DNA of 63,919 nt, the filler included, from Sluysia triapertura (Eukaryota): assembly GCA_046118255.1 (NCBI GenBank). It is 5 parts of 5 records of this genome, joined end to end, with 100 filler letters (N's around TTAATTAATTAA, not from the genome) between each part and the next. Parts side by side here need not be neighbours in the genome. Positions count along the whole stretch, not along the records: positions 53,043 to 63,919 come from JBJNIA010192185.1; 4 more parts are not named here. One strand, given 5' to 3'. Positions 24,320 through 63,919 of the stretch are shown piece after piece; the first letter of the stretch is position 1; each line of letters begins with the position of its first letter. The notes beneath the pieces were generated by a model that saw only the letters and a program-made list of their open reading frames with translations, made no database searches and had not been told where the DNA came from. The translations under genes and the position numbers were made by a program.

Positions 24320-25016
24320 CGAAAATGGAAAATATACGAAATAGCATTAATAGATCAAATATTAAATTAAAAATGCAAAAGAACAAACGAATTTGTATTA
24401 AAGAAAATTAATGAGAATGATTTAATGCACATTATGTCGGAAATGTCAAAAACAAGTTCTATTAACCCAATAGCAACCAAACTTATCAAAAATAATTCAA
24501 TTTGGATTAAATTTATTCCGATTTTATTGAAAATTATTAATAATTCATTATATAGTCTAAAATTTCCTTCAAGTGAAAAAGTATCCGTTATAGAACCTTA
24601 TATGAAACAAAGTGATCCATTGCTTTTAAATAATTATTATATACCCGTATCAAATATAACACTCTTATCAAAGTTGATAGAAAAAGTAGTTTTACAACAA
24701 TTATCAAAGTTCTTAGGCGAAAATCAACTTCTTACAATGTATCAATCAGCCTACATGTCTGGTGCTTTTGATACAGTTGATCATGAAATATTACTTTGTG
24801 ATCTCCAAAAAATGTCTCATATGAATCATATTTAAATGAAAGAAGGCAATATGTTTTATTAAATAATGTGAAGTCAAATGAGGTATATGTAAAGCATGGA
24901 GTTCCTCAGGAATCAATACTTGGTACGTTATTGTTTATATTATATATCAATGATGTTTCAAGTGTAATCGAATCATACGGTTTTATATATGATGACATGC
25001 AAATATATTGTGAATA
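24320..25016 (+). mobile_element. Non-LTR retrotransposon (L2/CR1-type) reverse transcriptase relic
   Basis: PVSNITLLSKLIEKVV, YQSAY, AFDTVDHEILL, RRQYV, HGVPQESILGTLLFILYIND and YDDMQIY occur in RT order with deletions and frameshifts. Confidence 0.92.
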
Positions 25017-29658: not shown

Positions 29659-32600
29659 TCAAGACAATTTGGTGTTATTTTTAATATGAAAAACAAAAAT
29701 AATAATTACTGTGGTAACCAAATCTCTGAGTATATTTAATTCTTCTTCGTTAAACGGTTTCTTTGCAAGGCAGAAAAATGTTAATTTTATCTTAGGTTGG
29801 AAAATTTTACCAGAAGTTTCTTGAAGTACACATTTTGTTCGTATAAATTTAGCTTGACAGAACTTTGAATTATACAACATTAGCCATCCCCTTGAATCTG
29901 TCCAAAATGGATATGTACAAAAAAAGCGACATTTGGACTTTTCTATTTGTAAACAATCCAAAATTCTTTCGGATGTTTTATTTAAAATTGATTCAACAAA
30001 AGGTGGATTTATTGTCCAACCACAATTTAATGTATTACGCCGATTTGGCAGCACTTCGAAAAAATTGCCTAGACTTCCAAATAAGCGATCTATTTCCGGA
30101 AATATACTACAGAAACCATGAATTTGTCTAACATTTTTTTCTGAACAAACTTAATAAATTAAATAAAATACAATTCGAAATAAATTAATATAATAATCCA
30201 TAAAAAGAAAATTATTGAGGAAGTCAGATTAACTATCAATATCTGACAAACAACAATATTCATAGATATAAATTATGTTTGTGACTATATTTTGTACTCT
30301 GTGATGCTGAATTCGTTTGAAAGTACGAGAATGTCGGAATATTACGTAATTTAGTATGAAACCATGCTTTAAAATAAGTCAAGCAGTCAAGGACACGTTT
30401 TCTAGTTGCTTCAATGAAAGTCATTAAATTAGGAAAATTATTTAAATTTAAAACTAACCAATCTAATGAATAAATTAAAGATAAATAATACAATAATTTA
30501 AACTAAATCTAAATAATTTGAAATAAAATAAATTCTTCAAGAACTCTAATAATCTCAAGAAAACCTTTAAAATCTGAAAATGGGAAATAAACATCTTAAA
30601 AATGCATTTAAAAACAGTTAAAGTAAAATAATGATTTTATTCTTAATTCCTTCTCTAACACCAAAGACGAGTTAAAATCACGACTTTACATCAGGTGGAA
30701 ACTTTCTTAAGATAAAAATTTGTAAAATAAACAATTAAATGAAATTCGTTCGCTTGTGCTTTCCCATACCGATAAACACAATATTATTAATACGTTTCAT
30801 TTACAAACTCAGTCATAAATATTTGTTATTATAGTTGATTAACTTGGTTAATTATTGAAAACTCTGGAATTACCTATTTTATTTATCTGAACAATTATTG
30901 TGTGACCAGAACAGAAATTATACTCAGTAAAGTAGAATGAATTTGAAAACTACATTAAGTCCCCTTGACTATATATGTATTTCTTTACTTTGTTTGCAGA
31001 ATATAGAAAGAAGTTAAGAACTAAACCCACGTTATACATTGATTTGATTGATAGGAATTATAAATAAAAATTATACGTAGTGATTTAAAGTTAAACCATT
31101 GGTAAAGTAATCTTAATAAATTAATACGAATAATCTTAATTCAATCTATTTCATTTTTTAGCTAATTTCACGACATACCAAATTTTCTCCAAAATTATAT
31201 ATGTATTATTACTGTAATTATATGATCAATTTCATCTATATAATTCCACTTTGTATTTTAGCTTTGGTCATATAATTCATGTTCATCCGTTTTGTTAATG
31301 TATTCATTATGCATGCTGCTTTTCATTTATATTTTAAGAGAATTACATATCCATAGCTTTTTCTTTCGCCTAATTAAGTATGATAGATTCTATTTTTCAT
31401 TATTATTTTATTTTCATTTTCTTACACTTTCTTCTAAGTTTAAGTGATTTTTGAAGTATTTTCTTCCCATTTAAGATCTTTATTAATTTTCCATTTGAAA
31501 TTACAGAGACTTAGAGTTCTTGACACCATTTATTTGAATTTTACAGTAATTATTATTATAGGATAATAATAAGTGCATAATTAACAAGTAATATTACAAT
31601 AAGACTAATAAAAAACATTGAAAAATGAGTAATAATAATAATAACAACAGTTGCATTAAGGTATTTACTTATTCATAACTATTGTTTTTATGAAACAAAA
31701 TGTTAATATAAATTAATAAATATAAGCCTACCGAATAATTATAATTTATTAAGCTCTGTAACATATAATTCATCTAATTAAATATTAATTATACTTATTT
31801 TATTTCATAATAAAAATAAAATACACTATATTCTGTGAACTTAATAGGAATTATTAATTTAAATTCTTAAATACATTTAAACTAATTAAAATATATGCTT
31901 GCAATTCTTCGACCAAAATTACCATTCAACATTCATCAAAATAATTCGTTATAACTCTTACAAGTCACTAAATGGTTTGCTAATAAAGCGTTGCTAAAAT
32001 GGTTTGATCAAATTCAGTTAGAAATTGAAATGTCAGAATAGATGTGCTCAAATAGGTTCCGGCAGCATTTTAAAAGCACGAAAATAGTATTTAAAGTTAC
32101 TAGATATATTACTGAAGATATTTTTAATGTGGATGAAACAAGAATATTTTATAATCTTTTAACAAATCAAATATCCTTTAAGAGAAAAATTTTCATGAAG
32201 AAAGAAGATGAAAGATCGAAAGCAGTAGTTACCTTACGAAACTTGCCATAATTTAAAGCTTATATATTCTTAATGTTTGCTGACATTTTTCCTATAAATT
32301 ATGAATTTAGACATTACTACTATCACACTTGTCATTTTCAGTCCAATAATCCAAGACAACATGAACTTCTTCAAACAGCATTATTGTTATGCGCTATATT
32401 ATGCAAGTGATGGAACTAAAATCATAAGCTTTTGACTAAACTAATTATTGAATTTATATATTCAGTTCGAATGCTGTTAATGCAAGGCACAATCATTAAT
32501 TTTTCCGAAAATCTCGTTTTACGCCGCTGCTGAAATAAAATAAATCAATACGGTTAATAATTAAGAGCAATTAAGACCTTTATAAGCAATTCAGAGAACG

Positions 32601-34097
32601 GCTTTTCGGAAAATAATAAATGACATACAAATGTGCTTGAAGACTGTATTCTGAAGTTAGAAATTCTTTTGAAGTTAAAAATCATTTTATAAAATTAATT
32701 AAAGTAAAAAGAACTTTTTATTTCTATTTCCTATCATTTTCCACAAATTCTTAATCGTTTCAAACTTATTTCATTAAAGCAATCAGATATTTTTAAAATA
32801 AAAATTAACAAAGATAAACGTTATTCTTCTGCAAATTTACTTAATTTTCCAATTTTAAAAATCTTAATTACTGTGATGTAATTTTAGAAACAAGCTGTGA
32901 TTTGTTATTTAATTTATACTAATAATTAATATACAGTAATATTACTGTCATTGTACTGTTTTATCAGTAATAGTTAATCGCGAAAAGGGAAATATTTTTT
33001 ATTTTAAAATTAAATATCTTATTCTTTTACATAATATAAATTCTGTAATAAAAATTTAAATGTACTCTTAAATATATAAATATAATTTTGAATTAATGTT
33101 TCCTTATTCAATTTATATACTACAAATTAATAGAGTAATGTTTCTACTTTTAATTGCTTAAACCACTTAATTGCTTTAACTGATATATATATTTTGTATT
33201 TTAAAATTAAATCTTATTTAAATAAACTAAATTAAATATTCGATATTAGAAATTTTAAATATAGTGAATAATTTTGAATTCTAATTCATAAACCATTTAT
33301 TTAAAATTTATATTATAAATAATAAATTATAAACTCACTTTTCTTTTTACCATCAATAAGTTGACCATTATTTTTCATATTAATATCTAAATACAAAGAT
33401 TATTTTGTAACTTAAATTTTTTATGTTTAATATTAACAAAACCTAATGAATTCAGTTATTTAAAAATATTAGAATTAGTTGGATGATCATAAAACTAACT
33501 TAATAAACGTGAATTAATAGGCGATGCAAATCCTTCATGGACAACATTGAATCGTTGATATAATATTTCATGGAATTCAATTGGATCACCCCACTGGTAA
33601 CTTCCATTTCCAAAAGCTTCATATGTAAGTAACACTTTAACAATGTTGTTCAACATGTCTTTTTTTGGACACAAACGAAGTAAAAGTTCTTGATTTAAAA
33701 AGTCTGTTCCATGAAAATCACCTATCGTTATTTTACCATTTATCACTTCTGGCGAAGGAGGAATAATGTTTTCAAATGTTTTGTTATTAGACAAAATTAG
33801 TTCCAGCATATTCTTTTTTGCTTCAATAGCTGCATCTTCTGTCCAAAAGATATTCTTCTTTAAAAGACCATTTATCAAAACTTGAAATAATCCATCGTGA
33901 AATTTAGCATCAGGCAGCAAAGGAAAATTAGAACATTTAAATATACCTTTCATTTGATGTACTTCAAGTAACCAATGCTGAAAAGCATTCGTACATTCCC
34001 GTTTTTCAAGTTCTGATGTTACATTTTCAAATAAAAATGGATATAATTGTTGATCGAAAAACTTCCATTGTCGATATGCTACATTTAAATCATTCAT
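29659..34097 (-). CDS. PCIF1: PCIF1/CAPAM-like cap-specific adenosine N6-methyltransferase, compact form, ~375 aa; exons 34097-33500, 33386-33339, 30140-29659
   Basis: Motifs AFQHWLLE...PLLP, LLTY..GNGSYQW, EGFASPINS, FCSIFPEIDRLFGSLGNFF and INPPFVE parallel PCIF1 (FNRWMLE..DPLLP, ECFASPLN, YCSAFPDTDGYFGS, NPPF). Two phase-1 GT-AG introns join 598+48+482 = 1128 nt in frame. The 5' and 3' ends are less certain, and a possible extra donor lies at 29709. Confidence 0.85.
31960..32640 (+). mobile_element. Tigger/pogo DDE transposase relic
   Basis: YITEDIFNVDETRIFYNLL...ERSKAVVTL matches YxPxDIFNxDETGLFY...SKxRxT. The rest is broken. Confidence 0.8.
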
Positions 34098-35108
34098 AAT
34101 AAATTTAAATATCAGAGTTAAAAAAATGTTAAGAGCATAATATAGATATAATATTAAAACAATTTGAAAAACTTTAATCTAAGCAAATTAAATCTGAATA
34201 ATAAAAATAATTTTTAACTGTACCTACATATAAAAATAATTTCAATTAAAGATGTGTTGTGATGATCCAACACTAAATCCTAATGATATTTTTCGAAGTA
34301 AATATCATCAAATCATTTATATCTTGACTTAAATATTAAACATAACTTCCATATTTTCTAGAATTTTACACTGGTTATATTAATTTTCAATCTTTATACT
34401 AATGTTCGATTAAGTCTAAGCTTTTAAAAATAAAACCAATTTTAAAAAATTGGTAAAACGTTGAATGTAACACAAAAATGACAACTCCAGAGAAATAAGA
34501 GTTTTATTAATTATCGTCATTAATATGTAATTAGTTTTTAGTATTATTTTACATTTTTGTATATTTTTTTATTCACTTAGATGTGCTCGGTTTTCTTTTT
34601 ATGTTTTCCATAAGCAAAATAATTTAAATTCTTATTTTATAATCTACGACTTACACTCAATGAGAGCGTAGTTGTAAATAAGACAATTATCAAAGTACAG
34701 AATTTATTTAAATTCTTATTTTAAACTTATTAACAGGACAATAAAGATCAAAATACTTTCATTAAATATGTATATGTAACAACTTTTAACTTCAAAAGTA
34801 AATGGTACAGATGTATAATCAATCTGGCAACGAATATAATATGATATCAAAATATCAAAATATTAGAGATGATTACTCTAATATTAAATAAACGAATTTT
34901 AAAACACATTTGGTAATTTAATATAATTTTTCCTATATTTTAAGTTTCACTTATGTGAAAAAACTTACGTTCATGGAAGTCTGTGTAACGAAATTAAAGT
35001 TATAAAATGTAATTGACAATTGAAATGATCAGAGAACCAGCAACGCAGCTTTTATCTTCCAAAAATAGCATCATTAAAGTAATATTCCTACAAAATAAAA
35101 ATAGATAA

Positions 35109-50399: not shown

Positions 50400-51103
50400 T
50401 TTCCTTTCTTTATTAAGAAGAGTACAAATAATACCATATTTTTTCTTTAATTCAAGAAAAATTTTGTGAATATATTTCATATCGTGCTCTTTTCATGCAT
50501 ATTTTGCTGAAACAATCCTTTTACCACTCATCTCAGTGCAATTTTTCGGCCTGGATGTTTAAATCTACTTAATAATTGTTTATTAGCTGCCAAATCAGTT
50601 AACCCATGTAAGTTATTTTTTATTTCTAAAACTATTAGATCATTATCTAGTCCATATCCCACCAATATCTTTCCTTTCAGTAATAATCCTATATAAGTAA
50701 TAATTGCTTGTTCATCTATTTGATTAATTAAATCCTTTTCAGTAAAATGTGTAATTCTTGTTATATAATATGTTACATAATTCCAAAGTGTAATTTTAGC
50801 AGCAAATATTTCTTTTCCTTCATAATTCAACAATGCTATACCTGCCAATCCTAACTTTTTATACTTTACTTGGACAAATTCAGCATCTAAAAATATCAAT
50901 CGCTCTTTAATATTTTCAAATCCTAATAAAAATTCATCGTTACTACCCATTTGTAATTTTATATCTTCAGGTATTGTAGCCTTAATATAAGGAATATAAA
51001 AATTCTTATAAAATTCTATGCATATAATAGATTGTTTACTAGAAAAAGTGAAGGATAATGATTTATAACAAAATTTAAGATTCAAAGTCTGATATTGACC
51101 CAA
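50400..51103 (-). pseudogene. DEDDh 3'-5' exonuclease (REX4/ISG20-like), intronless, disrupted at the C-terminus
   Basis: ExoI FLDAEFV, then IALLNYEG, YITRITHFTEKDL, ExoII LLKGKILVGYGLDNDL and KIALR. The ExoIII region lies beyond an in-frame stop at 50528-50530. Confidence 0.8.
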
Positions 51104-51599
51104 AATATAGCTTCATTTTGCTGTTTTAACCTTAGTTTCATTTTTTATTACATAAATTTGAATCTCCATAACAATTCGGATAATCATTAATTAAAATTAA
51201 TGTCCGATTTCTACTATTAAATTTTAATACGTTAGGTATTTTTATTATATTATCAAATTCTAAAACCTTGGACTCAGAAGTTTTTAGAAATTTATTAACA
51301 ATATCTAAGTCCGATATTTTGATAATATTGAATAATTTCAGATAATCACACACAAAAAAATCATCAAATGATGATAAAAAAATGAAATAGCTATAAATGT
51401 AATAGTTAAAAAGCGTTAAATGATAAAAAAAGTCAAAATGACTAAAATAGAATCAAGACAATAAAAAGTCCATTGATAAAATTATAATAATAAATGATTA
51501 TCAGATGAAAATATAATATTTATGCACAATCTACTAACAGTTGAAAATAGTGTTGACAATGACGATAGCCGTGGCAATGAACCTATCAACAAAGTAAGT

Positions 51600-52940
51600 T
51601 CGGACTATCAGTTATACGATATTCTCCGAACTAGTTTGTGTATTTTTGTTATCAAATTGTTTGACTTTCGAACGAGTTATTTTATGATTGACAATCAAAT
51701 CTGTAATATTAACAATTATCAAAACAATTATAATACATGACTCCAAAATAACGAAAATAATATACGGATTGTGGGGCATTGTACACTGCATGGTCGACCT
51801 GTTTTCAGGGCCATTTGCAGTCGTTCTTCCCATTATCCTAAATTGAAACTTACTACGTATTATTGCAGATTTCGTGTAAAAAATTTTTTTGTAAATTTGG
51901 GTAAATAAGTAAACGTAAATGTAACTTTTCTTGGCTCATATCTAACCTTAATTTTTTGGTGTTTATGTCGAAGCAGTTGCTTATTAAAATACTGGGAACG
52001 GCTACATTGTCTAATTATAACAAAGTGATTCTGGTTATACGACTTAATCGGAAATATCAATTTTCTATCTTCAAAAAAGACATCAGTTTTGTTAGCTAAA
52101 ATAATACTATGATTTTATTATTTTATGTCTATGTATATAAATATTAAATCGTTAAAATAATGAACAGAAGTTTCACTTTCTTCTTTAAAATAGCTAAGAG
52201 TTGTGATATTTCGCCACTTTACTATTAATTCTCTATTAGATAATTGTTTGATCTCTACAAAAACAGGTACTCGTAATACTGGATAAGTTATAAGTCTCCT
52301 TCAACACAATCATATTAGCATATACAATTTCAACATCTTAAAATGTATCCGGATCAATCCTGTGCATACATAATTATGGTGCTGTATTTGATATTTAAAT
52401 GAATGTATTCCGTTCATATTTTTGTATATTATAGATACAATATCATATGGGTGATTCTTTATTGAGTCTACTGTGATATGAAATACGCCTGGACTAAAAA
52501 ACAAGTTTTTAATAATTCGTTGTTATTAATGGCTATAACAGAGCTTTGAGATGACATAATTGTTATCTTGCAGCAGTATATAACTATAAACAATACATTT
52601 GCCACAAATAAACCAGGTGAAGATTATTGTAGTTTTGGTCTTATAATTTAAATGTTTAAAGTTACCGTTGTTATTCATACTGTTACAACGGGTTTCATGT
52701 ACATAAAATTTAAAATTACAACACCGGTGCTTAAGGCATTCGAAAATCTCATTATTAAGAATAATATTTGAATAAAGATAATAAGACAAATTTATATTAT
52801 AGGCACATAAAAAAGATTGACAATGCTTGTTAACACATTAAAACATTGAATAAGTCTAATAGTATAAAACTTACATTGTCTATCAACGGTGAGGATATAA
52901 GATATCGTTCCTAAACTTCCATTCTTTCCAACGTTTTGAA
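51600..52940 (-). pseudogene. Decayed paralog of the 520-aa orphan ORF at 62001-63563
   Basis: Fragments 52789-52526, 52504-52310 and 52060-51860 share one frame. Collinear matches: FFSPGVFHITVDSIKNHPYDIV vs FYVPAIYDMMRIIPNQRPFDIL; VIIRQC...KQLLRH vs YIIKDC...LNLLRH; KVRYEPRKVTFTFTY vs KMYTRVRKVTVRIEY. Confidence 0.65.
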
Positions 52941-53042: not shown

Positions 53043-53700
53043 AAATTTCCAGATATTTTGGACATTTATGTGAATTAGCTGGATGATTAAAGTCATTATG
53101 ACATTTTACACAATTTATGCACTTGTATGAACAAGTGCATAAATTGTAAATCATATGAACAAGCTTGTATAAAATCTAAACATATATAGCAATGAGACTG
53201 TTTTTATGTGGAAAAACTTGCCTTGCAACAGAATCTATAAGACCATGAAGATTTTTAATTACTTTTAAGGTGATTACCGTATCCGATGAAAAATATTTCG
53301 TGCATTTCATCACATCCAGAAATATAGATATAAATTATACATTTAAAAAGAGTATGGATCATAATCGTAGTTGCGGAAAAACAAACAAATATAATTTTAT
53401 TAAAATGGTAATGAAAAAACGAATAACACAAGCATATAATTGCGATGTAAACGAATATAAAAGTATATGTGAAATAGAAAATTGTCAAGCAAATATTATA
53501 ATACAAAATTAAACAACATACGAATAGAATTAACTGTAGGCGGAAATAAATTAGATAATAGTTAATATAGAACGAAACAAAATATTAATTGGCCATATTG
53601 TAGTTGCTGCAAGGATTTTACTTATTCTTGAAAAAAGATTCTGGAGGTCAGTTCGCCTAATTAGACACGATTTAAATCTGGTCTAAGACGTTCTGATTAG
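53043..53700 (+). mobile_element. Possible RTE-type LINE 3' relic
   Basis: Broken frames end IERNKILIGHIV...KRFWRSVRLIRHDL, resembling the RxLRWxGHVxR...RWxDxIxxDL tail of RTE ORF2. Confidence 0.4.
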
Positions 53701-53857
53701 GATTTTAATAAACTTAACGTAGCAACAAGGTATGATTTTCAATTACGTGCAAAAACTTAAATAATAAAATAGCAATGTTATAATAAAAACAATGTTCAAT
53801 TATGTTAACATGTCACAATGATGTTTGGGGATTGTTTGTCACAAATCCCATTGTTTT

Positions 53858-54016
53858 TGGGTAATTGCGGGAGATAATAAATTGGAAGCCGACGGAAATT
53901 ATCGTCGAAGTTTAATTATTTAAATAGGTCGGCTTATCATCGACTTAAAAGAATGAATAATTATATGAATTAATTTTTTCTGTTTTCCAATTTTTTATCT
54001 CCTCAGCAATTACCCA
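53858..54016. mobile_element. MITE with TTGGGTAATTGC termini; an inverted second copy lies at about 54591-54737
   Basis: TTGGGTAATTGCGGGAGATAA ... TTATCTCCTCAGCAATTACCCAA. The internal sequence aligns in reverse complement with 54591-54737. Confidence 0.75.
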
Positions 54017-54884
54017 ACTACTGTATAAGCAGTCTCATTTTAGTTAAAATTAGAACAAAAAAGATATCTGAATAAGTCAGAAGAATAAGAGTAAACTTCA
54101 CTTCCAATAAGACAGCTGTCCCAAAACATTTGTGATGATCACTGTTTGTGATAATTGATCTTTAGCAATTAACACAGCTTATAAGTTTTAGTACTGTTGT
54201 CTTTATTTAAAAATAACTCAATGGTTAAATTAATACTAAGTCTAAATATATTCTCAATTACCACAATATATTATCAATTATTCTTTTATAACAAATACTT
54301 CAATATGTAAATTCAAAAATTATAAATCACTATCGTACGTACTAAATCTATAAAAATCCAGGGTGACATAACGAGATAAATGTTGACAATAACAATAACG
54401 TAAATTACTAACCCTAACAATAAAACTACGGCTTATAAAGTTTAGTCAGCTGCTGAAGATAAGTCCTCAATAACAGTGCATATCACAAATGTGTTGAGGC
54501 AGCGCTCTTTATGGAGATAAAGTTCTGTAAATAAAGTTTTCTGTTTAATTCATTTATATTGTTCTGTTTTTGTGACAAAAAATGTATCACTTGGGTAATT
54601 GCTTAGCATATTAAAAATTGGAAAAATGGAAATAATTATTCATTTTTTAGTCGATCATAAACCAACCAATTTTAATAATTAAATTCTAATATTAATTTCC
54701 GTCGGTTTTTACTTTATTGTCTCCTGCAATTAATCAAAGATAATGGGATCCGCAATGAACAATCCCCTTATAATTTCAACATAATTAAATCAAAATTTAA
54801 CATCGTTATTACACGAATATATAAAACTAATCAGACTAAATTTATTTTCCATGTAAATAATTTTTAATGGTTATTATATCGTAA

Positions 54885-55125
54885 ATGTAAAATTTTGCTT
54901 CTGCTAAGTCTTTTAAAATTTTATGCGTTATTTCTGAATACTGTTTTATACTTTATGAATTTTGTACATACTTGAAAAACTCTTGTTCCTTACTACGAAC
55001 TTAAACCTCTATGGATTCTTATAATATTCTGAACTTCTCTACTAATGTTATCACTTTATATTAAACTTAACTGGAGGTATGAATTAATATACTCGTCCTT
55101 ATTGTTCAGGATAGAAGTGTTTAAT
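54885..55125 (+). repeat. Interspersed repeat, copy E (homologous to 7085-7345 on the - strand)
   Basis: See copy D. Confidence 0.88.
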
Positions 55126-55419
55126 AATCGACTAATTATTTAACATAACTGTAATTATTTAACAATACCTTTTTAACAATGTACTTTTATTACATTGTTT
55201 TATTTTATTTAAACTATTAATATACTCCTACTATATGCTTCTGATAATAATTTTATTCCACGACTCTATTTTCCACCCCTTACAAGAAAATAAACAAATT
55301 GAAATAAAGTTATTTAATCAATTAAAGAATTAATACAATTTAATTATTACACAATAATACAAATTAAACATATATATTTTATTTTATAATGTTATTATTA
55401 TTAAAGAAAAATAATAATC

Positions 55420-55880
55420 CTACCTTCGATAAATCCCGAACAATTAGTAAATTTCAATTGAAAGTTGGTAACAGCAAATCTCTTCAACTAAATTATTTCG
55501 ATGAATCTTGATCAATAAGCAGCAAATCTTATTCAAATTAAAGTACTTTGATAAATAACAAGCAGCAAATCTTTTAAATTATTTTGATAAATCTCGAACG
55601 ATAAGTCTATCAAAAACTATTTTTTTGTGTTTTTATTGTTCCTTCCTTCCTTATATAGATTTTGCAGATTAATAATAATCCAATAATGTTAATAAATTCA
55701 ATTATTCAATTACGTTAATAAATTCAGCTTGTATTCAAATCCATATATTATAAATTCATATCACATAAATTCAAATTAATTACTTTATATATTACATACA
55801 CAAATTCAAATCCATATATTATAAATTCATACATAAATTCAGCTAATATCATAAATTAATTACTTTATATATTACATACA
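55420..55880. repeat. Imperfect tandem repeats (three CAGCAAATCT-containing units of ~45-50 bp, then a ~70-bp duplication)
   Basis: CAGCAAATCT at about 55472, 55520 and 55563. ATTCAAATCCATATATTATAAATTCATA and TAATTACTTTATATATTACATACA each occur twice. Confidence 0.75.
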
Positions 55881-57653
55881 TTCACAATTACTGTTCATTT
55901 TGTGGACGAATAATAATAATTAATAATAATATTAATATTAATCATTAGAATTATTATTTCTGTTCGAACTTATTTTTGGTTTAATTTATATTAAATCTTA
56001 ATAATTCTTAACTAATATTTTATTAAAAACGAGTTTGTAGCTTATAAATTATTTATTTTTAAAATGAAGAACGTTATGTTTTACTACATATTATAATATT
56101 ACGTTACAGTATTATAATATTACATTATTACATTCATAAGAATCTTTTATACAATGCGTCGCACATCAATTTCAGTATCTTCATGAACATCAATTTAATA
56201 TATACTTTAATTACACTTAAACAACATTACAACATATATAAATTTAATTTTAGGTATGACAATTAAAAAACTAATTTTTACATTTTCTGCGTCGACGTGC
56301 TTGAAACATTTCAACATTAACATTCATCATTACACATTAATTCTAATGTTATTTTATCATATACGGACATTTTTCATTAAATCATTAAATTAAGCAATTT
56401 AATTATATTAATTAACGAATGTACTTTAATATTTTAACAAGTAATACCTTATAAAGTGTTCTTTCTTTGTATCTTTCATTCTTTTATTTTGATTAAAACA
56501 TTTATTCACTTATTCAAGTATTTTATCTTATTTATTTTTTTATTTTAATAATGCGTATTATATTTTATACTAAAATCTATAACCCTTGTGTTCCTCTTCA
56601 GCTTTAACCAAACCCAACAGTACTATTATTGCGTTTTGTTAATTTTGTTTAATATGAGTCTCAACATTTTAAATATTGTGTCACCCATGGATTTTCCTTT
56701 CATTGATTTATAACTCTGAATTTGTATATTGATATTAAAGTATAATCGATAATTTGTCATTTTTGTGATATTTGAAATATATTGAGATTTAGTTGTTGAC
56801 TTATCGTTGATAATGTTGAATAGAGATACAACGTAATGCAATCATTACAACTTTTCCGATCAGTAAAAAAATAAAAATTTTAACCTATTATTGCATGAAC
56901 ACTCATTTATTATCTGAGAATACAATCCCTTCTGTAGCTCACATCTATAAGCAATAATATTTTATTATATAACTTGGGAAAATATTTCCTGATCTGCTAC
57001 ACAAGCTCTGTCACGTTTATTGTTTATCAATATTACATCTGACGTTAATTTGAATTAAAACTTATATTGAATTTAAATCTCGATTTTATTAACATTTTAT
57101 TCATAATAAACTTGTTCTTTTGTTTAATGGGAAATAGAGGATATGATAAAATACTTACAACTTTTAAAAACAGGCTTGAGATAGAATGCTCTCGAATAGA
57201 AGATAGTTTGAGAGAAAAGATTTTAAAATAAACGAAATCTTAAATCGTCTCAGTACAAAAAATTTTGTAAGTACGATTTACTATAAAAATTACTCATAGT
57301 AAATAATGCCACTTCGGTATAAAGATTGTATAAATTTAACATAATGTCAGTTGATTATAGATTGTCATAATAAATGGTGTCATATATAGCATGTTATCAG
57401 TTTCTCTTCAAATAACAAATTTAAACATTTCTTTTCTATTCGGGAATATCATATATCCACATCCTAATTCGTTGTTTCTACAGTAGTTAGGTTTTAACAA
57501 AAATATCTGTTGAATTAAAAAAAATAATCTTATTAAAACTTAAGTGAAGTTATGTAAGAAAATATAAAATATTACTATTAAAAGTAATACGTTTTAAGCA
57601 ATTGAATTTTAAGTAATATTGTTACTACATATTTAAAATTTTGTTATATTCAG

Positions 57654-62000: not shown

Positions 62001-63551
62001 CTACTTTTCGAGGTTATAGGCTTTGGGGTGTATACGATGTGACCCCATTAAATTTTCACACGATGTAGTGCGTGCAGTCATTAAGAATATGGCTTTAAGA
62101 TTCTTAATTGAGAAAATATTGAAGACATAGGCTGAGGGCGTAAACAAGAACTTAATATGAAATATGATTTTGCAATTATAATTGGTGAAGAGAAGAATAT
62201 CGACGCAGTCAAGTTCACTAGTATATGACTCAGGTCGAATTACTCTGTATTGTAGTGCATTATATTCTATTCTTACCGTCACTTTTCTAACTCTAGTATA
62301 CATCTTAACTTCTCTAATATTTATTTTATTCATTGAATTCTTTATATTTTTTAAATACAAAGAATATCTATAATGATCATAGACAATGTGTCTTAGAAGA
62401 TTTAGGTTATAAATTTTATTTAGTGATGACTGATTGTTTATACTATTACAGTCTTTAATGATATATTTTTTTGTGAATTTTAAAATCTTGAAGTACGCTG
62501 AATAAACACAACACATACGGATATATATTTTAACTAATATTAACATTATTGTAAATTTTAGGCTTCCATATACATATTCTCCTTGTTTCACTTTCCGGAT
62601 CTTAGGACATTCTAAATAATTAAAATTACAATAAATAATAAATTTACAACTAACAAAAACTAATAGGTTAAGATTAATTACACTATGACTAATTGCGAAC
62701 TTGAATAGGTCGTCTGATACGCTCATTTCGGTTGAATAATACATGTTGGCTAAAAGGTAAACAAGCAACTTCATTCCTTTAATATTCCATCTCTTGTAAA
62801 TAATTTTCTTAACGACTAATATTGTGTCTCTATTATTGGTCTTTTTCTTTAAGCGTATACATTTACGATTATTAGGAAGATGTACTAATTGATATAGCAT
62901 TTTACGTATTTCTTTTCCTTTGTTCATCTTAACAAAGCTAACTAACATTAAAACATCATGATAATTATGTAAACTAAAAAATAAAATAGTATAATTGAAT
63001 TCGCACAATATATCAAACGGTCTTTGATTAGGAATAATTCTCATCATGTCATAAATTGCAGGAACATAGAATGTATTGTAACCTTTGATATTGTCAACTA
63101 AATAGTGTACACTATCGTTGTTATTCAATATCGACAGAAAAGACCTACAGATTGTTCTTTTAGCATATATAACAACGTGATGATGTTGTTGTAAATACAT
63201 TTTAACAATTGAATTAACGTCCGTGTTTACTGGATTTATTCTTAATAATAAATGCTTTAAAGACAACTGGCAAATATTAAATTTAGAGAATTCAATTATT
63301 GAAATTGCATCATTAAATAGGACTACGAGATAAATAACACTTGTATTGTGATAATTACACTTTGGTATTGTCGAGACATTTAAATCTTTGACTAATTTTA
63401 AATGCTGGAATTTTGATAGATAAATCACTAATTTGACCATTTGTTGATACACGAGATACTTAGGAACGAATATATTGTTGTTACATGACTTTGTGAACAT
63501 TATTAAAGATAAGTTATTACATTTATTTTGTGTAAACTCTAATTTTGCCAT
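62001..63551 (-). CDS. Intronless orphan ORF (516 aa from the ATG at 63551; 520 aa from the TTG at 63563), family unknown
   Basis: About 1.55 kb without a stop in very AT-rich DNA, with a decayed paralog at 51600-52940. No recognisable domain. Confidence 0.7.
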   Translation of the reverse strand: MAKLEFTQNKCNNLSLIMFTKSCNNNIFVPKYLVYQQMVKLVIYLSKFQHLKLVKDLNVSTIPKCNYHNTSVIYLVVLFNDAISIIEFSKFNICQLSLKHLLLRINPVNTDVNSIVKMYLQQHHHVVIYAKRTICRSFLSILNNNDSVHYLVDNIKGYNTFYVPAIYDMMRIIPNQRPFDILCEFNYTILFFSLHNYHDVLMLVSFVKMNKGKEIRKMLYQLVHLPNNRKCIRLKKKTNNRDTILVVKKIIYKRWNIKGMKLLVYLLANMYYSTEMSVSDDLFKFAISHSVINLNLLVFVSCKFIIYCNFNYLECPKIRKVKQGEYVYGSLKFTIMLILVKIYIRMCCVYSAYFKILKFTKKYIIKDCNSINNQSSLNKIYNLNLLRHIVYDHYRYSLYLKNIKNSMNKINIREVKMYTRVRKVTVRIEYNALQYRVIRPESYTSELDCVDILLFTNYNCKIIFHIKFLFTPSAYVFNIFSIKNLKAIFLMTARTTSCENLMGSHRIHPKAYNLEK

Positions 63552-63698
63552 TTTTTTAGACAAAATTTTTGTAGTACCAATTTTTATCTTTTATTGTGAA
63601 ATCCAAAATTGTTTATTTAACACCCAAAATGATATTAAAAATTGTGTACTGTTAATTGTTGTTAATTTTCAATTCTATTTTTAACTCCAATTGAGTCT

Positions 63699-63750
63699 GC
63701 CCAATCAGAGTATCTCAACAACGATATAATAGATTAGATTCTGATTGGGC
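63699..63750. promoter_or_regulatory. Inverted pair of CCAAT-box motifs upstream of the orphan ORF
   Basis: GCCCAATCAGA (63699-63709) and TCTGATTGGGC (63740-63750) form a perfect 11-bp inverted repeat about 150 bp upstream of the ATG. Confidence 0.5.
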
Positions 63751-63919
63751 GTTGAATCTGTTATTGAGAATTTAAGTTACTAACCATCATCATCAGTAGT
63801 GATTTGCAGGTGGTAATGCATTAAGTGTCACTACTGATGATGGTGTGATAGGTGGTTGAGATATTAGTTAATGAAGTGTTGTGATTATCGAATGTTGTTT
63901 TATGATGTTTGTGTTGGTG

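What the first reader, a model, noticed from the sequence alone, without database searches (positions are those of the whole stretch)
62001..63563. Intact 520-codon orphan ORF defining an unrecognised protein family
Seen: the longest ORF in the window, intronless, rich in Lys, Ile, Asn, Tyr and Cys, with no motif I recognise. It aligns in at least three collinear blocks with the decayed copy on another contig (F-x-x-P-x9-P-[FY]-D-I; II-x-x-C...LLRH; RKVT-x3-Y). Such a long open frame is very unlikely by chance at this AT content. Protein-level similarity without obvious DNA identity implies an old coding family. Inference: a gene of the same unknown mobile element or virus as the 49.7-52.9 kb cassette, or a lineage-specific expanded family.
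Basis: partly seen in the sequence, partly recalled or inferred. Interest (0 to 1): 0.72.

Follow-up and report, generated by a model that had tools for sequence, protein, structure and literature searches.

The report
Frame-keeping chimera of captured host exons
This long open reading frame is not a new protein family but a patchwork of two captured host exons and an older third piece inside a repeated hairpin-led DNA unit; its copies have kept the reading frame open while the amino acids drifted almost freely, likely because the unit's RNA must be translatable to be copied again.

Summary
The ORF is real (62001-63551, minus strand, 516 aa), but the claimed match to 51600-52940 is chance. The ORF is one of many dispersed, mostly broken copies (88 matches). 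It is a three-part chimera. Residues ~12-110 come from the BED-finger exon of a flatworm ZBED-type host gene and end exactly at that exon's splice donor. Residues 111-~285 come from an exon of a second host gene. The rest is an older piece shared by at least 150 loci. It lies behind a twin-hairpin leader; one hairpin pattern has 1,390 sites genome-wide. The scan already noted this cassette system on other DNA of this genome. New here are the host sources, exact intron loss in a sister clade, leader swapping, and frame-only selection: omega is 0.86, there are 25 stops against 1,146-2,299 in the other frames, and 15 of 17 shared indels keep the frame against 21 of 94 private ones. Likely mechanism: a non-autonomous RNA-copied element whose RNA has to stay translatable. 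The mobilising enzyme was not found, and expression is untested.

The parts
62001..63551 (-). Intact 516-codon chimeric ORF (G000:C192185:8962-10509 plus stop)
63222..63517 (-). Segment 1 (aa ~12-110): eroded copy of the BED-finger exon of the host ZBED-type gene (G000:C254767:3690-4508, L106). A private 78-nt in-frame deletion removes the CxxC.
   Evidence: Host exon Pfam zf-BED E 1.7e-7. The window copy is 60.5% identical over 294 aligned nt; root-near copies are 90-95% identical. Junction at aa 110/111. Deletion.
62697..63221 (-). Segment 2 (aa 111-~285): eroded, internally deleted piece of a large D/E/N/S-rich exon of a second host gene (G000:C182339:1819-2723, L286). The gene is unidentified.
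   Evidence: Protein alignment chain; DNA matches of 66-85% to cassette copies; acceptor at 1818/1819. The end boundary is approximate.
62047..62696 (-). Segment 3 (aa ~286-~503): older C-terminal module, also found behind other N-terminal cargos. Its host source was not found.
   Evidence: 150 matches listed of 1,475 candidates; other N-termini; 139 bits to the segment profile
62022..62046 (-). 3' end unit (GGGGT...ACCCCAAA, small hairpin); homology to the sister copies stops here
63552..63700 (-). Leader-to-ORF linker; homology to the nearest cargo sisters ends at 63638-63659
63701..63748 (.). Inverted repeat 2 of the leader (CCAATCAGA-spacer-TCTGATTGG), a paired CCAAT-like box
   Evidence: 1 match in the window against 0.03 expected; 1,390 sites genome-wide, control 0
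63785..63845 (.). Inverted repeat 1 of the leader (18-nt arms, 94% complementary)
63846..63919 (-). Leader continues to the contig end. The ~1 kb further leader and its TGTAGTGG start are not in the window.
   Evidence: Contig ends 368 nt upstream of the ATG; full leaders seen in other loci

Best explanation
The ORF is the cargo of a ~3 kb repeated cassette (leader with two inverted repeats, one ORF, short 3' unit) and is a chimera of two captured host exons and an older third segment, likely copied through RNA by another element's reverse transcriptase and likely kept stop-free because only translatable RNA gets copied again. SHOWN: (1) three-part make-up with two host sources in the same genome; (2) exact loss of two introns from the cargo of a sister clade that carries the same third segment; (3) a ladder-shaped tree with this copy at the far tip; (4) stops and frameshifts purged on shared branches while amino-acid change is near neutral; (5) leaders do not follow the cargo tree. 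INFERRED: (a) order of assembly. An older cassette (host gene 3 mRNA plus segment 3) took up the gene-2 exon piece by a template switch at a short shared repeat, and later the ZBED exon was spliced onto an AG inside that cassette. (b) Copying is by error-prone reverse transcription with template switching between co-packaged RNAs. (c) The open frame protects the RNA from nonsense-mediated decay or keeps it on ribosomes. (d) The protein itself does nothing. Odds: cargo chimera 0.9; RNA-based propagation 0.75; selection on translatability rather than protein function 0.7.
For: Copies: 88 matches, most with stops or frameshifts; 4 of 25 near-complete copies are open over 90% or more of their length. 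Segment 1: zf-BED found in a relative and in the leaderless host exon. That exon's closest high-identity hits are flatworm BED proteins, mostly BED+hATC; 35 of 36 hits are flatworm. Profile-profile match of the family N-terminus 99.2%. Homology to the host exon ends at GTG|GTTAGT, a donor also used by a host intron in C187977. Segment 2. Junction 2 lies in an 8-of-9 shared TGATGATGA/TGATTATGA stretch. Intron loss: exons 811-862, 994-1301 and 2578-2866 of C187977 are joined base-exactly in L348. Tree: 40 rows; host exon terminal branch 0.02, window 0.73 substitutions/site away. Selection: divergence is about equal at codon positions 1, 2 and 3 in 52 pairs; omega 0.857, kappa 4.8. Stops in the first 500 codons: 25 against 1,146-2,299 in the five other frames. 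All 25 are private to one copy; 34 stops are seen in all where 84 are expected on terminal branches alone. Shared indels 15 of 17 in frame (13 of 14 of 4 nt or more, P 6e-6), private 21 of 94. System-wide: in 28 of 28 orientable loci (of 34 examined) the longest downstream frame is on the sense strand, with varied host domains. Leader similarity against cargo distance: r +0.13, 21 copies. The window's leader is 79% like that of L060, whose cargo is 0.52 substitutions/site away, and has little or no match to its cargo sisters.
Against: No reverse transcriptase, integrase or transposase was found behind the leader in 32 ORFs scanned, and no genome-wide search for a mover was run. No LTR pair and no long poly(A). 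Target-site duplications are inconsistent: 8, 5 and 4 bp in three elements with a clear 3' end, none in two. Omega is slightly but significantly below 1 (2dlnL 12.4), so weak protein constraint is not excluded. Four copies keep ~55 nt of the gene-2 intron end, which needs unspliced RNA or DNA capture. The AG at junction 1 is present in only 3 of 8 body-only copies viewed. Intron loss is shown for the sister clade's cargo, not inside this ORF. That C254767 and C35419 are one gene is inferred from their domains, not shown. The window copy has 0 stops where 4.1 are expected on its terminal branch (P 0.017), which also fits a copy under its own selection.
Confidence: 0.7

Rival explanations
1. A fast-evolving, lineage-specific chimeric gene family that is useful to the host (for example parasite antigens or decoys). 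The proteins are needed but almost any sequence will do; the leader is simply a promoter that travels with the genes.
For: Frame strongly kept; omega slightly below 1; several long intact copies; paired CCAAT-like boxes upstream.
Against: 21 of 25 near-complete copies are broken by private lesions. Composition has drifted to the random-codon expectation. The BED zinc ligands are lost. The same leader stands before many unrelated cargos. Branch lengths are very unequal from one host exon.
Confidence: 0.15
2. A DNA-level gene-capturing transposon (Helentron/HINE-like or Pack-TIR-like) that picked up already processed retrocopies and spreads them by rolling-circle or cut-and-paste movement.
For: Sharp 5' end TGTAGTGG in 8 of 8 long leaders. 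Small 3' hairpin unit at 40 of 90 ends scored. An inverted piece of the leader lies downstream in 2 of 92 loci scored, plus L414. Intron ends are kept in four copies.
Against: No TT-site preference at 5' flanks. Inverted ends are absent from about 97% of loci. DNA-level copying gives no reason for stops and frameshifts to be purged, nor for 5-40% divergence from one host exon among copies of the same capture.
Confidence: 0.1
3. Old unknown protein family of a virus or mobile element, shared with 49.7-52.9 kb.
For: Long intact frame with no direct database hit.
Against: The alignment is chance; two of three segments trace to intron-bounded host exons; no PHROGs or PDB profile hit.
Confidence: 0.03

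Closest known systems
LTR-mediated chimeric retrocopies in animals (Tan et al. 2016, PMC5131818; abstract and passages seen; maize Bs1 is cited there)
   Same: Partial, intronless host mRNA pieces; chimeras of two or more genes; short shared sequence at a fusion point; sense and in-frame cargo; further rounds of copying as non-autonomous elements.
   Different: There the cargo is flanked by LTR retrotransposon sequence on both sides, and 14 of 21 older copies carried loss-of-function changes. Here no second leader copy follows the cargo, and the frame is kept over 0.7 substitutions/site with omega near 1.
DINE-1/HINE non-autonomous Helentrons (PMC4067079; passages seen)
   Same: Non-autonomous; inverted repeats; microsatellite; short 3' stem-loop.
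   Different: They are described as lacking coding capacity, with subTIRs near both ends and TT insertion. Here the inverted repeats lie ~1 kb inside, 5' flanks are varied, and the cargo is spliced and frame-selected.
Penelope-like elements mobilising host genes in Adineta vaga (PMC3846280; passages seen)
   Same: Host gene expansion in trans; occasional inverted terminal piece; target duplications of varying length or absent.
   Different: The genes carried there keep their introns and are framed by pLTRs. Here introns are removed and no pLTR pair is seen.
Flatworm BED + hAT-dimerisation (ZBED-type) gene, e.g. Schistosoma mansoni Smp_157860 and Echinococcus ECG_06139
   Same: Source of residues ~12-110.
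   Different: The ORF lacks the CxxC and all of the hAT-like and hATC region. The host's own 3' exons on C35419 do not match the ORF family.
Poliovirus defective-interfering genomes (PMC11265389; one passage seen)
   Same: A replicating RNA that keeps only in-frame deletions. Analogy only.
   Different: There downstream viral proteins are needed in cis. Here no functional downstream protein is evident.

Membership tests
ZBED/hAT transposase-derived protein | Intact BED finger (CxxC...H...H) | tested here: not met
   CxxC is deleted in the window ORF; Pfam 0 hits; intact only in the host exon.
ZBED/hAT transposase-derived protein | hAT RNase-H-like core and hATC dimerisation domain | tested here: not met
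   Body profile against flatworm ZBED alignment: probability 0.03; no match to host 3' exons; PDB profile searches 0.
LTR-mediated chimeric retrocopy | Intronless partial host mRNA as cargo | tested here: met
   Two introns removed base-exactly in the sister clade; exon-bounded pieces in this ORF.
LTR-mediated chimeric retrocopy | Microsimilarity at fusion points | tested here: inconclusive
   8 of 9 nt shared at junction 2; junction 1 falls on a splice donor; no chance model was run.
LTR-mediated chimeric retrocopy | LTR or internal LTR-element sequence on both sides of the cargo | tested here: not met
   A same-strand leader match downstream in 1 of 92 loci with 700 nt or more of 3' flank, and that one lacks the leader's start. 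Homology drops at the 3' unit.
LTR-mediated chimeric retrocopy | Fixed 4-6 bp target-site duplication | tested here: inconclusive
   8, 5 and 4 bp in three elements, none in two.
LINE-mobilised processed pseudogene / non-LTR partner | 3' poly(A) or simple-repeat tail | tested here: not met
   Ends carry 3-6 A after a ~30-nt unit; no long A tract.
LINE-mobilised processed pseudogene / non-LTR partner | Variable 5' truncation and variable-length target duplication | tested here: inconclusive
   Several leaders lose homology after 250-930 nt while 8 start at the same base; few complete elements could be tested.
Helentron/HINE | Insertion into TT, with subTIRs near both ends | tested here: not met
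   5' flanks end in varied bases. SubTIR pairs were not seen by eye; no dedicated subTIR scan was run.
Helentron/HINE | Autonomous Rep/helicase partner sharing the ends | not tested
   No genome-wide search for a partner was run.
Penelope-like element derivative | pLTR pair and intron retention in carried genes | tested here: not met
   Introns removed; inverted leader piece in only 3 loci; no Rfam match in one full leader.
Pack-TIR / Ginger-type DNA transposon | Terminal inverted repeats at both ends | tested here: not met
   Inverted leader downstream in 2 of 92 loci scored, plus L414.
Endogenous virus gene | Viral homologue or viral hallmark genes nearby | tested here: not met
   PHROGs best E 0.015; 32 cargo ORFs gave only host-type domains or nothing at E<0.01. 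Viral contigs was not scanned.

The most novel reading that the evidence does not exclude
A genome-scale class of RNA-copied cassettes in a flatworm (over a thousand leaders) that serially captures and shuffles host exons, swaps leaders, and is selected only for an open reading frame. It thus acts as a factory of long, promoter-bearing, random-sequence orphan ORFs, moved by a mechanism that fits neither LTR, LINE, Penelope, Helentron nor TIR rules.
Probability: 0.35. Interest if true: 0.88.

Novelty: new variant of a known kind. Interest (0 to 1): 0.7.

Why it matters
It shows how a 516-codon 'orphan gene' with no database hit can arise without any protein function, with the steps traceable to host exons in the same genome. 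That is a caution for orphan-gene catalogues and a natural test bed for de novo gene birth. Selection on frame alone over about 0.7 substitutions per site is unusual for a genomic element. It makes a direct prediction: stops should lower the RNA's level or its copying. It also gives the cassette system already noted elsewhere in this genome a measured mode of evolution and direct evidence of an RNA step.

Tried and rejected
Eroded full-length hAT transposase (my first idea): rejected, only the BED exon matches. A ZBED exon 2 as source of the body: two DNA searches found only cassette copies; the body was then traced to another gene. Structure prediction: pLDDT 34.6, pTM 0.24, so no fold search was run. 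Homology searches with the ORF, a body copy and the gene-2 exon found nothing (the last two cover limited length ranges). The second Atlas query returned no result, so the gene-2 exon was not compared there. Source of segment 3: 20 candidate contigs were all cassette copies or fragments. Expression: no RNA holder listed, which is no evidence either way. The one run laid (X1, contigs, possibly the assembly's own source) shows near-identical pieces of the ORF at depth 74-94 beside flank pieces at 15-27, a hint of collapsed siblings only. Exact 3'-unit pattern: 4 sites, all in this family, so the pattern was too tight. Rfam on one full leader and tRNA scan of the window: nothing. The 3' unit resembles a tRNA-Leu primer-binding site (recalled, not tested). 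Seven literature searches (listings and abstract starts only, except the four papers cited) showed no report of this cassette or of frame-only selection in a gene-capturing element. They do not cover most subscription journals, and no supplements were read.

Full report
1. The observation. The window is a pack of five stretches. The finding lies in the last, which is the whole of G000:C192185. The frame is real: 62001-63551 on the minus strand, 516 aa from the first ATG, 529 aa stop to stop. Chance cannot give it (about 4e-19). Pfam, PHROGs, 1.84 billion representatives and the Atlas give nothing useful, and the predicted model is unusable (pLDDT 34.6). The claimed three-block alignment to 51600-52940 fails every test. 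It scores 46 against 53+/-7 for shuffles. Allowing frameshifts, it scores 54 against 57+/-8, with a positive control at 113. A family profile gives it -2 to -5 bits.

2. It is a multi-copy family. A search of the own genome gave 88 matches (83 of 184 candidates scored), 28-100% identical and mostly with stops or frame breaks. DNA homology to the closest copies runs from about 62022 to 63659. Of 25 near-complete copies, 4 are open over 90% or more of their length.

3. Segment 1 is a host BED exon. A less eroded copy hits Pfam zf-BED above the cut-off. The intact version lies on C254767, without the hairpin leader. Of its 36 database hits, 35 are flatworm BED proteins, most with a hAT dimerisation domain; the top hit by score is a brittle-star protein at only 38% identity. 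From this I infer a flatworm host. The family's N-terminus matches the flatworm alignment at 99.2% probability, and nothing further does. Intron-split hAT-like and hATC exons lie on C35419 and do not match the family; that they belong to the same gene is inferred. Homology to the host exon stops exactly at GTG|GTTAGT. A host intron on C187977 uses the same donor. In the window this joint is at codon 110/111. Copies that have the body but not the BED part switch homology at the same base, with AG just upstream in 3 of 8 viewed. I read this as the BED exon spliced onto an older cassette (inferred).

4. Segments 2 and 3. Walking down the body-only copies gave a larger family (135 matches, 120 of 453 candidates scored) and a leaderless source. 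This is a 545-codon D/E/N/S-rich frame on C182339 that begins after TTTTAACAG. Cassette copies match its bases 1815-2723 at 66-85%; four also keep about 55 nt of the intron end. The alignment chains this exon to window residues 111 to about 285. The remainder is shared by at least 150 loci (1,475 candidates), including a clade with a different N-terminus. That N-terminus comes from a third host gene on C187977. Its exons 811-862, 994-1301 and 2578-2866 are joined base-exactly in cassette L348, with both GT-AG introns gone. The gene-2/segment-3 joint falls in an 8-of-9 shared repeat. The host source of segment 3 was not found among 20 candidates.

5. The cassette. Upstream of the ORF are two inverted repeats, 63701-63748 and 63785-63845. 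In 11 leaders, 5 of 24 predicted pairs show a change on both sides (relatedness not controlled). The inner pattern has 1,390 sites genome-wide, against 0 for the reversed control. I examined 34 of the first-listed sites; 6 could not be oriented. In 28 of 28 of the rest the longest downstream frame was on the sense strand (60-687 aa, against 47-205 antisense). Cargo domains include ankyrin, tRNA synthetase, Misato, CRAL-TRIO/LRR and Ras; none is an RT, integrase or transposase. Full leaders start at TGTAGTGG or TGCAGTGG about 1.0-1.09 kb upstream of the inner repeat (8 of 8 long ones), and others appear 5'-truncated. Complete units of this family are about 2.7-3.1 kb and end just past the ORF; 40 of 90 ends scored carry a ~30-nt unit ending CCYAAA. 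There is no second leader and no long poly(A). An inverted leader piece follows in three loci. Target duplications are 8, 5 and 4 bp or absent. Earlier notes of this scan describe this leader system on other DNA of the genome. I had seen it independently and do not count those notes as support.

6. How the family evolves. I aligned 54 copies and built a tree of the 40 with 900 nt or more or the host exon; 14 shorter ones were dropped. Rooted on the host exon, which overlaps only the BED part, the tree is a ladder with short tips and the window copy at the far end. The window is 0.73 substitutions/site from the host exon, whose own branch is 0.02. Root-near copies are 90-95% identical to that exon and the window 60.5%. 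Such unequal change since one capture points to error-prone serial copying (inferred). Divergence is about equal at all codon positions in 52 pairs, and omega is 0.857 (2dlnL 12.4 against omega 1). Yet the frame is guarded. There are 25 stops in the first 500 codons against 1,146-2,299 in the other five frames. All 25 are private, and shared stops occur only at codons 503-514. In all, 34 stops are seen where neutral change predicts 84 on the tips alone, or 667 along whole, non-independent paths. Shared indels keep the frame in 15 of 17 cases, private ones in 21 of 94. The Lys/Ile/Asn/Tyr/Cys richness is drift: the ORF's composition correlates at 0.93 with random codons of its base content, the source exons at 0.52-0.60. 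Leaders do not follow cargos (r +0.13, 21 copies). The window's own leader resembles L060's, not those of its cargo sisters.

7. Mechanism. Most likely a non-autonomous, RNA-copied cassette. It is transcribed from its leader; the paired CCAAT-like boxes would be the promoter (untested). It captures host exons by splicing or template switching and is reverse-transcribed in trans. Copies with a premature stop or frameshift leave no descendants, likely through nonsense-mediated decay or a need for ribosome passage, and copies decay after insertion. The window ORF is then a recent, not yet broken insertion of a long-running lineage. Against this: the mover is unidentified, the ends fit no single class, omega is a little under 1, and expression is untested. 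Rivals are a useful but sequence-tolerant host gene family (0.15) and a DNA-level capturing transposon (0.10).

8. Relation to known systems. It works most like the LTR-mediated chimeric retrocopies of Tan et al. (PMC5131818; abstract and passages) but lacks flanking LTR sequence, so I do not file it there. It fails tested features of Helentrons (PMC4067079, passages), Penelope derivatives (PMC3846280, passages) and TIR elements. The in-frame rule recalls poliovirus defective genomes (PMC11265389, one passage), as an analogy only.

9. Verdict. Not a new protein family; a well-resolved example of an undescribed gene-capturing cassette with frame-only selection. New variant of a known kind, interest 0.70; categorically new with probability 0.35.

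Noticed in passing
window 51539-52642: A repeated sequence, 76% identical over 1,155 nt to L381 (G000:C5422), where it lies just beyond the 3' end of a hairpin cassette. Unrelated to the ORF.
   Followed up: partly
window 50528-51112 (-): 194-aa frame that looks like a DEDDh-type exonuclease by eye (recalled motif); Pfam blank, PHROGs polymerase exonuclease only E 0.14.
   Followed up: no
window 29659-30150 and 33495-34178 (-): Exons of a PCIF1-like host gene (Pfam PF12237, E 2e-17 and 8e-5).
   Followed up: no
window 1464-2021 and 3615-4103 (+); 24371-24835 (+): By eye, exons of an MFS-type transporter and a LINE-like RT fragment (recalled resemblance, not searched).
   Followed up: no
window 53627-56791: Repeat pieces shared with many loci in both orientations, so an abundant separate repeat.
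   Followed up: no
L087 (G000:C191827:3927-4073) and other zf-BED hits: Canonical-looking hAT transposase frames on mostly short contigs, quite unlike the AT-rich family studied here. They could be foreign DNA in the assembly (a guess, not tested).
   Followed up: no
L414:1724-2134, L376, L034: An inverted, truncated piece of the leader directly after the cargo. In L414 and L376 it ends at the leader's terminal bases, giving a TIR-like unit.
   Followed up: partly
L189 (G000:C899:363-497): Two inner inverted repeats in tandem with different spacers, as expected from leader recombination.
   Followed up: no
L263, L265, L267, L268: Cassette copies that keep ~55 nt of the host intron end in frame before the captured gene-2 exon.
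   Followed up: partly
L380:1866-3926 and L387:2080-3906: Other cassettes with 687- and 609-codon open frames; the first has LRR plus CRAL-TRIO domains, so probably another chimera.
   Followed up: no
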